64,000 bases of DNA, from assembly GCF_003334765.1 (NCBI RefSeq), contig NZ_QOWT01000004.1; one strand, written 5' to 3'. How positions within the stretch are numbered: the first letter of the stretch is position 1; every line of letters begins with the position of its first letter. The notes under the pieces were generated by a model that searched no databases, was not told the origin of the DNA, and saw nothing but the letters and a program-made list of their open reading frames with translations. Shown here in pieces: positions 11,310-11,457 of the stretch. This DNA is from Escherichia coli (GTDB lineage Bacteria; Pseudomonadota; Gammaproteobacteria; Enterobacterales; Enterobacteriaceae). The position numbers and the translations under genes are program-made.

Positions 11310-11403
11310 AACTTGAGTAAGGTTTTAGAATAAACATCAGCTGTATCACCATGCTGATGCAAAGTGAGCATTTCAGGCGTTATGCTTTCTTATTATGTCC
11401 GCA

Positions 11404-11457
11404 ATATCAGGTGTCAAGAATGGAGAGTTCTCGCTCTCCATTCTTGACGCCTGATAT
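11404..11457. repeat. long near-perfect palindrome (24-nt arms, 6-nt loop)
   Basis: ATATCAGGTGTCAAGAATGGAGAG-ttctcg-CTCTCCATTCTTGACGCCTGATAT with one arm mismatch; a partial third copy (TCAGGCGTTA) at 11371-11385. Confidence 0.5.

What the first reader, a model, noticed from the sequence alone, without database searches (positions are those of the whole stretch)
11371..11457. 54-bp near-perfect palindrome between ymgC and pdeG
Arms of 24 nt (ATATCAGGTGTCAAGAATGGAGAG / CTCTCCATTCTTGACGCCTGATAT) with one mismatch and a 6-nt loop, plus a partial third copy of the arm 30 bp upstream. It is far longer than a typical terminator stem, has no T-run, and does not resemble REP or ERIC consensus that I know. 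It could be a strong RNA structure in the pdeG leader, a processing site, or a dyad protein-binding site.
Basis: seen in the sequence. Interest (0 to 1): 0.45.

Follow-up and report, generated by a model that had tools for sequence, protein, structure and literature searches.

The report
Long hairpin after the ymgC gene
A real, single-copy 54-base hairpin-forming palindrome lies between two E. coli biofilm-signalling genes; it most likely caps the end of the upstream messenger RNA, and the K-12 version became near-perfect only recently, so it is a tidy but fairly ordinary feature.

Summary
The palindrome is real: arms 11404-11427 and 11434-11457, 24 nt with one mismatch, 6-nt spacer. No shuffle reproduces it, and it is the longest hairpin-type repeat in the window. 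It is not a repeat family. There is one locus per genome in about 4,970 of 5,426 E. coli genomes, nothing in phages, only E. coli records among plasmids, and no Rfam match. [quoted passage not shown] Every allele examined, including a 93%-identical outgroup, keeps a hairpin here. The older form is imperfect: a 7-bp and a 14-bp helix separated by an internal loop. The K-12-type continuous helix is nested in the flank tree, so it is derived. Almost all non-Watson-Crick pairs are G·U on the + strand and mismatches on the - strand, which points to an RNA role. The best reading is a 3'-end or intercistronic mRNA stem-loop that acts as an exonuclease barrier and weak insulator. It was perfected by changes that fit quasi-palindrome correction. 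It lacks a U-tract, so it is not a canonical terminator. A published predicted pdeG -35 hexamer lies in the right arm. The function is untested.

The parts
11404..11427 (+). Left arm of the palindrome (ATATCAGGTGTCAAGAATGGAGAG). Positions 11411-11414 are the segment that replaced an 8-nt internal-loop segment of the older allele.
11428..11433 (+). Spacer TTCTCG. In RNA, T11428 pairs with G11433, giving a 25-bp helix with the 4-nt loop UCUC.
11434..11457 (+). Right arm (CTCTCCATTCTTGACGCCTGATAT). This is the conserved arm in all alleles.
11370..11380 (+). Partial extra copy ATTTCAGGCGT, 10/11 complementary to the end of the right arm. It is of marginal significance and sits in the loop of a small local hairpin.
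11336..11360 (+). Small stem-loop CATCAGC-N11-GCTGATG, 27 nt after the ymgC stop. Its sequence is partly shared with the paralogous ymgC copy (L010).
11444..11474 (+). Published predicted pdeG (ycgG) sigma-70 promoter TTGACG-19-TATTTT. The -35 hexamer (11444-11449) lies inside the right arm and the -10 hexamer is at 11469-11474. This is a prediction inside an RNA polymerase SELEX peak, not a mapped start site.
   Evidence: not found by the stricter scan
11061..11309 (+). [quoted passage not shown] The hairpin starts 95 nt after its stop codon.
11641..13164 (+). pdeG (ycgG), CSS-EAL phosphodiesterase. Its annotated start is 184 nt after the hairpin.

Best explanation
The element acts as a + strand RNA stem-loop in the untranslated spacer after ymgC. 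[quoted passage not shown] The hairpin is not followed by a U-tract, so it is not a canonical intrinsic terminator. By inference, it stops 3'-to-5' exonucleases after factor-dependent or inefficient termination. That would define and stabilise the 3' end of the operon mRNA and limit read-through into pdeG. All sampled lineages carry an older, imperfect form: an outer 7-bp helix, an internal loop, and an inner 14-bp helix. In the lineage that includes K-12, the 8-nt internal-loop segment of the left arm was replaced by 4 nt that pair with the right arm, giving a continuous 24-25-bp helix. This pattern fits quasi-palindrome (template-switch) correction during replication. The one remaining T.G position has since been repaired both ways in natural strains. 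Shown: the structure, its single-copy status, its conservation, the direction of change and the + strand wobble bias. Inferred: that the operon transcript covers it, the exonuclease-barrier and insulator role, and the template-switch mechanism.
For: Structure and significance. Copy number: one locus per genome in 4,970 of 5,426 E. coli genomes. Position: 95 nt after the stop codon of the last gene of an operon that Northern blots show as a single polycistronic mRNA (PMC3509220). A hairpin is kept in all 11 E. coli alleles and in outgroup L116, which is 93.1% identical over 5 kb. In the shared helices (7 + 14 pairs, 12 alleles) the + strand has 229 Watson-Crick, 22 G.U and 1 mismatched cell. 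The - strand has 229 Watson-Crick, 1 G.U and 22 mismatched cells. Long-type alleles fold 5-9 kcal/mol better as + strand RNA. There are stepwise compensatory series through G.U: pair 24 goes A-U (L116, A8) to G.U to G-C (K-12), and pair 9 goes C-G, U.G, U-A. Polarity: in the flank tree rooted on L116, long alleles are basal and short alleles are nested. Perfect forms occur in 153 records (T-A) and 71 records (C-G), against 2,890 with the K-12 form. There is no U-tract and no terminator-like site. ymgC mRNA is not polyadenylated by PAP I, which those authors link to the lack of an intrinsic terminator (PMC1636475).
Against: I could not find a mapped RNA 3' end at the hairpin. The Term-seq tables of Adams et al. 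2021 list none at MG1655 1,2170xx-1,2172xx. That study grew cells at 37 C, where this low-temperature, blue-light operon is probably poorly expressed (my own knowledge). The wobble bias rests on about 8 independent changes (roughly 7 to 1, one-sided p about 0.04 by my count), and strand-biased mutation could contribute. The shuffle controls of the count of structure pairs show no significant covariation. The region is dispensable: it is absent from about 8% of genomes, and IS3, IS10 and IS1 insertions occur within 50 bp. The template switch predicts C at 11412, but K-12 has T, so an extra step is needed.
Confidence: 0.45

Rival explanations
1. It is a functionless DNA quasi-palindrome. An inverted repeat arose in a horizontally acquired AT-rich spacer, and replication template switching keeps it and occasionally perfects it. 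It persists because it is harmless.
For: It is single-copy and restricted to E. coli and close relatives. YmgC homologues occur only there, and ymgC/ycgG/ymgF are absent from other enterics (PMC3509220). The left arm is variable. The locus is mosaic by recombination. IS insertions and whole-locus loss are tolerated. No mapped RNA end was found. Both repairs of the T.G position are what template-switch hotspots would produce without any selection.
Against: Pairing is kept in a lineage that is 14% diverged in the flanks. Non-Watson-Crick pairs are almost all G.U on one strand only, which a purely DNA-level process does not predict. The inner 14-bp helix is 100% pairable as + strand RNA in every allele.
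Confidence: 0.25
2. It is a DNA-level control element of the pdeG promoter. The right arm carries the -35 hexamer. The dyad could bind a regulator or H-NS, or extrude as a cruciform under negative supercoiling and hide the -35.
For: Genomic SELEX with RpoD holoenzyme gave a peak in the ymgC>ycgG spacer, flagged as H-NS-associated, with the predicted promoter TTGACG-19-TATTTT (PMC3946193). The hexamers map to 11444-11449 and 11469-11474. The mirror TTGACA sits on the - strand in the left arm. As DNA, each strand folds at about -25 kcal/mol.
Against: The promoter is only a best-match prediction, with a poor 19-bp spacer and a weak -10. My scan found no promoter-like site there. The -10 region is not conserved between alleles. 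The ancestral left arm is imperfect and variable, so a 54-bp dyad site is not conserved. The wobble pattern points to RNA. No pdeG start site was found in the Cappable-seq supplement.
Confidence: 0.15
3. It is an RNase III processing site. The 25-bp continuous RNA helix of the K-12 type is cut by RNase III. That would remove the protective hairpin and destabilise the upstream operon mRNA, as in lambda sib retroregulation, or process a read-through pdeG transcript.
For: The helix has 25 continuous pairs, and the RNase III dimer accommodates about 22 bp of dsRNA (PMC6212723). The helix became long enough only in the derived allele.
Against: There are no cleavage data for this locus. The supplements of the RNase III maps were not available, and the tiling-array paper does not mention these genes. 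The older alleles have an internal loop and only a 14-bp helix, yet they conserve the hairpin, so cleavage cannot be the ancestral role.
Confidence: 0.1
4. It is a relic of a mobile element: two terminal inverted repeats of a MITE or IS left head-to-head.
For: The architecture is two 24-bp inverted repeats with a tiny spacer. A possible 4-bp direct repeat CCGC flanks it, read directly from the sequence. The spacer is an IS-prone region.
Against: There is no second copy in any E. coli genome. Nothing is found in phages, and only E. coli chromosomal-like records among 72,556 plasmids. A 20-mer of the arm finds no enterobacterial copy among 100,044 species genomes, only sigma-factor coding sequences in Firmicutes. 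The perfect form is derived, not ancestral.
Confidence: 0.03

Closest known systems
Intercistronic or 3'-terminal mRNA-stabilising stem-loops in E. coli (for example the REP hairpins of malE-malF, and the stable hairpins to which Rho-terminated transcripts are trimmed)
   Same: It is a very stable hairpin just downstream of the last gene of an operon, with no U-tract. It is expected to block PNPase and RNase II and to set the mature 3' end. It lies between two co-oriented transcription units.
   Different: It is single-copy and unrelated in sequence to REP. Its stem (24-25 bp) is much longer than usual. Its barrier function has not been measured.
Natural quasi-palindromes corrected by template switching (the Ripley model; the thyA hotspot studied by Lovett and colleagues; template-switch origin of RNA hairpins proposed by Monttinen and Loytynoja). 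Cited from my own knowledge.
   Same: An imperfect inverted repeat is converted to a perfect one by a cluster of nearby changes that all increase complementarity. The single remaining mismatch is repaired in both directions in natural isolates (153 and 71 records).
   Different: The mechanism is inferred from population and outgroup comparison, not observed in a reporter assay. One base (T11412 instead of C) does not match a single clean switch.
Rho-independent (intrinsic) terminator
   Same: It is a stem-loop at the end of an operon.
   Different: There is no U-tract; the stem is followed by CCCGCCUAAC. The stem is 24-25 bp and only about 45% G+C, against the usual 5-14 bp G+C-rich stem. The scan finds no terminator-like site.
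Lambda sib / RNase III retroregulation hairpin
   Same: It is a long perfect RNA helix downstream of the regulated genes, of a size that RNase III can cut.
   Different: There is no evidence of cleavage. The ancestral form is interrupted by an internal loop.

Membership tests
Rho-independent terminator | Run of U (at least 4-5 of 8) immediately 3' of the stem | tested here: not met
   The sequence after the stem is CCCGCCTAACTT. The scan of 10900-11800 finds 0 terminator-like sites on either strand.
Rho-independent terminator | Short G+C-rich stem (about 5-14 bp) with a 3-8-nt loop | tested here: not met
   The stem is 24-25 bp with about 45% G+C. The loop of 4-6 nt is within range.
REP/BIME, ERIC/IRU and other E. 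coli interspersed repeats | Many copies per genome sharing a consensus | tested here: not met
   There is one locus per genome (median 1 place). The '2 places' are the two strands of the same palindrome. There is no repeat annotation at MG1655 1,217,091-1,217,144.
MITE / IS remnant | Terminal inverted repeats shared with other copies or with a parent IS, plus target-site duplication | tested here: not met
   No other copy is found in E. coli genomes, plasmids, phages or 100,044 species genomes. The flanking CCGC is only 4 bp and offset by one base.
Rfam RNA families | Covariance-model match at or near the gathering score | tested here: not met
   In 9800-13300 at E up to 10 there are only three chance-level matches, and none covers the hairpin.
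3'-end / intercistronic mRNA stabiliser hairpin | Stable stem-loop on the sense strand downstream of the last cistron | tested here: met
   The position is 95 nt after the ymgC stop.
3'-end / intercistronic mRNA stabiliser hairpin | Transcript 3' ends accumulate at the base of the hairpin, and removing it shortens the upstream mRNA half-life | not testable with these tools
   No 3' end is listed in the one Term-seq supplement I could search (37 C conditions). Other data sets were not held.
RNase III substrate | About two turns (20-22 bp or more) of dsRNA | tested here: met
   The K-12 allele has 25 continuous predicted pairs. The size requirement is from PMC6212723. The long alleles have only 14 + 7 bp.
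RNase III substrate | rnc-dependent cleavage in vivo or in vitro | not testable with these tools
   Searches gave no data for this locus.
Quasi-palindrome corrected by template switching | A cluster of derived changes that equals the reverse complement of the opposite arm | tested here: inconclusive
   The derived left segment GTGTCAAG compares with the reverse complement of the right arm, GCGTCAAG. All changes raise complementarity, but one base differs. Polarity is supported by the outgroup and the tree.
Sigma-70 promoter of pdeG | -35 and -10 hexamers with 16-18 bp spacing and a mapped start site | tested here: inconclusive
   The published prediction TTGACG-19-TATTTT maps to 11444-11474. 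It fails the 16-18 bp scan. No start site was found in the Cappable-seq supplement.

The most novel reading that the evidence does not exclude
The perfected 25-bp helix of the K-12-type lineages (A/B1-type strains by my own knowledge of strain phylogroups) is a lineage-specific gain of function. [quoted passage not shown] At the DNA level it could also act as a supercoiling-sensitive cruciform that occludes the pdeG -35. Either way, about 60% of E. coli strains would differ from B2-type strains in how strongly blue light or cold signals reach the Rcs system and c-di-GMP turnover.
Probability: 0.1. Interest if true: 0.55.

Novelty: new member of a known kind. Interest (0 to 1): 0.3.

Why it matters
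If the hairpin sets the 3' end and stability of the ycgZ-ymgABC mRNA, it helps determine the dose of small connector proteins that act on the Rcs phosphorelay, biofilm matrix and acid resistance. It would also insulate the neighbouring c-di-GMP phosphodiesterase gene. The two allele classes would then be a natural difference in expression between major E. coli lineages. Independently of function, the locus is a clean natural example of an imperfect hairpin being made perfect. The last mismatch is resolved in both directions in wild strains. That makes it useful for studying template-switch mutagenesis and the origin of compensatory changes in RNA stems. None of this changes current understanding, so it is a modest, well-defined addition to the annotation of a model genome.

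Tried and rejected
1. Repeat family or mobile element. This was rejected by copy number and by searches of plasmids, phages and species genomes.

2. The 18 genome-contig hits to an arm 20-mer. All are single arms inside sigma-factor region-4 coding sequence (QVQVSRMEK) of Clostridia and other MAGs, with no partner arm. They are a coincidence.

3. The search for related loci with YmgC on genome contigs found nothing. That collection appears not to hold this locus, so outgroups were obtained through the search for homologous proteins and the look-up of encoding contigs instead.

4. The paralogous ariR-ymgC copy next to cybB (L010, L011) was tried as an outgroup. Homology stops at about 11364-11369, so it says nothing about the palindrome.

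5. Low-quality contigs L115 and L119 carry many indels or transversions and low coverage. They were excluded.

6. Coding potential. The 50-aa ORF 11351-11503 crosses the palindrome, but the 4-nt length difference between alleles shifts its frame, so it is not a gene.

7. RNA-end literature. Adams 2021 Term-seq lists nothing at the locus. The TRS paper gave only irrelevant numeric hits. The 3'-UTR valves, Conway 2014, Rend-seq annotation and RNase III supplements are not held. The Cappable-seq supplement has no entry. Tschowri 2009 is not held.

8. The alternative pairing of the upstream partial copy with the right arm (an attenuator-like switch) was rejected. It is not predicted in any fold, it is marginal by chance, and it is not maintained in L116.

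9. I checked known DNA sites from memory only: matS, dif, Ter, IHF, CRP and the IS terminal repeats. There was no convincing match, and none was formally tested.

Full report
**Where we are.** The window is the E. coli K-12 bluR-bluF / ycgZ-ymgA-ariR-ymgC / pdeG region. Window coordinates convert to MG1655 (NC_000913.3) by adding 1,205,687, so the palindrome is at 1,217,091-1,217,144. No feature is annotated there in MG1655 or W3110.

**Observation.**
- The inverted repeat is as described. The arms are 11404-11427 and 11434-11457, 24 nt each, with one mismatch and the spacer TTCTCG.
- The arm has no other match in the window at up to 3 mismatches, and no shuffle gives two matches.
- It dominates every fold of the region. 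As RNA, 161 nt fold at -65.9 kcal/mol (z -9.3) on the + strand and -63 kcal/mol (z -8.5) on the - strand. As DNA the fold is about -25 kcal/mol with z about -10.6.
- It is the longest hairpin-type repeat in the 64 kb.
- The mismatch (T11412 opposite G11449) is a G.U wobble in + strand RNA, so the + strand RNA helix is continuous. With the T11428.G11433 pair it reaches 25 bp with a UCUC loop.
- No U-run follows the stem, and no terminator-like site is found on either strand.
- The 'third copy' (11370-11380) is real but marginal. About 5% of flank shuffles give an equivalent hit, and it is not predicted to pair with the right arm.

**Not a repeat family, not mobile, not a known RNA.**
- The 289-nt spacer matches one place per genome in 4,970 of 5,426 complete E. 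coli genomes. The two places per record seen with the 62-nt query are the two strands of one palindrome.
- Among 72,556 plasmids, only 14 E. coli records match, and they look like chromosome segments. No phage matches.
- A degenerate 20-mer of the arm found no enterobacterial copy in the species-genome collection. Its 18 hits are single arms inside sigma-factor genes of Firmicutes.
- Rfam gives nothing.
- YmgC homologues occur only in E. coli and very close relatives. This agrees with Tschowri et al. 2012, who report that ymgC, ycgG and ymgF are absent from other enterics (PMC3509220).

**Allelic series.** I combined annotated genomes, contigs found through divergent YmgC proteins and 82 metagenome contigs. 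This gave 11 E. coli alleles and one outgroup allele.
- Short alleles (54 nt) are the K-12 form and its one-step variants.
  - One variant has A at 11449, giving a perfect T-A pair. It occurs in 153 genome records, including ATCC 8739.
  - One variant has C at 11412, giving a perfect C-G pair. It occurs in 71 records.
  - The K-12 form itself occurs in 2,890 records.
- Long alleles (58 nt; for example Nissle 1917 and an ST131 strain) have three parts:
  - an outer helix ATATCAG/CTGATAT;
  - an asymmetric internal loop, with 8 nt on the left (such as GGGGCAAA) and 4 nt on the right;
  - an inner 14-bp helix CAGGAATGGAGAGC/GTTTTCCATTCTTG with three G.U pairs and a GCTC loop.
- A hybrid allele (L082) and mosaic haplotypes show short-patch recombination. 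One example is L062, which has K-12 flanks around a B2-type core.

**Direction of change.**
- Locus L116 has all genes intact. It is 93.1% identical to K-12 over 5 kb, compared with 95.6-98.6% for other E. coli alleles.
- Its flank identity to every E. coli allele is about the same, 86-88%, so it can serve as an outgroup.
- It carries the long architecture, with a perfect 14-bp inner helix (CAAGAATGGAGAAC/GTTCTCCATTCTTG, loop TATT) and an 8-nt left internal-loop segment.
- I built a neighbour-joining tree of 1.44 kb of flanking sequence with the palindrome removed, rooted on L116. Long alleles fall in the basal clades and short alleles in a nested clade. The two long-allele exceptions inside that clade are visibly recombinant.
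- The near-perfect K-12 palindrome is therefore derived from an older imperfect hairpin.
- The change replaced left-arm GGGGCAAA with GTGT, two G-to-T changes and a 4-nt loss in the alignment. Every part of it increases complementarity to the unchanged right arm.
- This pattern fits quasi-palindrome correction by template switching, a mechanism I cite from my own knowledge. A single clean switch predicts C at 11412, but the common allele has T. The inference therefore stays incomplete.

**RNA or DNA?**
- In the helices shared by all 12 alleles (7 + 14 pairs), the + strand has 229 Watson-Crick, 22 G.U and 1 mismatched cell. The - strand has 229 Watson-Crick, 1 G.U and 22 mismatched cells.
- Five of the six variable pairs are wobble on the + strand.
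- The official pair counts agree. On the + strand 94.3% of cells pair and the inner helix is 100% paired. On the - strand the figures are 88.6% and 88.2%.
- Long alleles fold 5-9 kcal/mol better as + strand RNA.
- Two positions show full compensatory series through G.U. Pair 24 goes A-U to G.U to G-C. Pair 9 goes C-G, U.G, U-A.
- By my count about 7 of 8 independent transitions preserve + strand pairing (one-sided p about 0.04). This is suggestive, not conclusive.
- The shuffle controls are not significant, and strand-biased mutation is a possible confounder.

**Which transcript, and what role?**
- The + strand here is the sense strand of both neighbours. Northern blots show ycgZ-ymgA-ymgB-ymgC as one polycistronic mRNA (PMC3509220), and the hairpin starts 95 nt after the ymgC stop.
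- There is no U-tract, so it fails the definition of an intrinsic terminator.
- Mohanty and Kushner used ymgC mRNA as a non-polyadenylated control. They argue that PAP I tails mark transcripts with intrinsic terminators (PMC1636475). That fits with termination here being factor-dependent.
- The most economical role is the well-known one of a stable 3' or intercistronic stem-loop. It halts 3' exonucleases, fixes the mature 3' end, stabilises the upstream cistrons and reduces read-through into pdeG. This step is inferred.
- The only Term-seq tables I could search list no end at the locus. The other data sets were not available.

**Rival readings.**
- *Promoter element.* Shimada et al. 2014 report an RpoD-holoenzyme SELEX peak, flagged for H-NS, in the ymgC>ycgG spacer, with the predicted promoter TTGACG-19-TATTTT (PMC3946193).
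  - I mapped it to 11444-11449 and 11469-11474, so the -35 lies in the right arm. If that promoter is real, the hairpin is upstream of the pdeG start and not in its leader.
  - The prediction is weak. The spacer is 19 bp, the -10 is poor and not conserved between alleles, and the stricter scan does not find it.
- *RNase III site.* The K-12 helix is long enough for RNase III (PMC6212723), but the ancestral form is interrupted and no cleavage data exist.
- *Neutral DNA quasi-palindrome.* This remains a serious alternative. The region is dispensable and takes IS insertions readily.
- *Mobile-element relic.* This is essentially excluded.

**Verdict.**
It is a strong RNA structure, but most likely in the ymgC 3' untranslated region rather than the pdeG leader, and it is not a protein dyad site.
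- It is an unannotated member of a known kind, with an instructive evolutionary history. Interest is modest, at 0.3.

Noticed in passing
window 11518-11598 (+): A 26-codon ORF (MEKILSSAWIFLMLSTMLSVDASASE, signal-peptide-like) ends with TGA directly before the ATG at 11599. It is in the same frame as the long pdeG ORF, whose annotated start is 11641. It has no indels among good-quality alleles, but most substitutions are non-synonymous and the ATG is TTG in B2 strains. It is not annotated in K-12.
   Followed up: partly
window about 11600-12270; loci L002, L005, L120: B2-type strains (Nissle 1917, EcPF18 and others) carry a deletion of about 670 bp that removes the 5' part of pdeG and leaves an N-terminally truncated pseudogene. 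Other strains have internal stops in pdeG (L003).
   Followed up: partly
L007 (strain A29), L008 (O177:H21), L013: There are three independent IS insertions within 50 bp of the hairpin. An IS3 end abuts 11424/11425 at the tip of the left arm, with everything from bluF to there deleted. IS10 has the 9-bp duplication TGCAAAGTG (11358-11366). IS1 has the duplication CTTATTTTG (11467-11475), on the predicted pdeG -10.
   Followed up: yes
L010 and L011 (GCA_017278115.1 and a Logan contig): Some E. coli carry a second, divergent ariR-ymgC copy (YmgC 82% identical) next to cybB-gapC-aldA. Homology to the K-12 locus ends about 55-60 nt after the ymgC stop, before the palindrome.
   Followed up: partly
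window 8422-8459: A perfect 14-nt inverted repeat (ATACTTTGTACAAT / ATTGTACAAAGTAT, 10-nt spacer) lies in the AT-rich gap between bluR and bluF. It may be a shared terminator or a binding site.
   Followed up: no
window 11410-11429; loci L015-L032: The arm 20-mer CAGGTGTCAAGAATGGAGAG is identical to the coding sequence for the sigma-factor region-4 motif QVQVSRMEK in many Clostridia and other MAGs. The spurious ORF across the palindrome reads QYQVSRMES. I judged this a coincidence.
   Followed up: yes
window about 12932-13043 (- strand); MG1655 1,218,619-1,218,730: Published Term-seq tables list antisense RNA 3' ends inside the 3' part of pdeG, one of them sensitive to Rho inhibition. This implies an antisense transcript across the end of pdeG (PMC7815308 supplement).
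   Followed up: no
window 10949-11060 (ariR-ymgC spacer): [quoted passage not shown] Genomic SELEX papers also list internal promoters at ycgZ>ymgA and ariR>ymgC.
   Followed up: no
whole locus 8569-13520: This region is unusually divergent within E. coli. Identity to K-12 is 95.6-96.1% for B2-type and related alleles, and the ymgC-pdeG spacer differs by about 10%. YmgC protein nevertheless stays 96-99% identical.
   Followed up: partly
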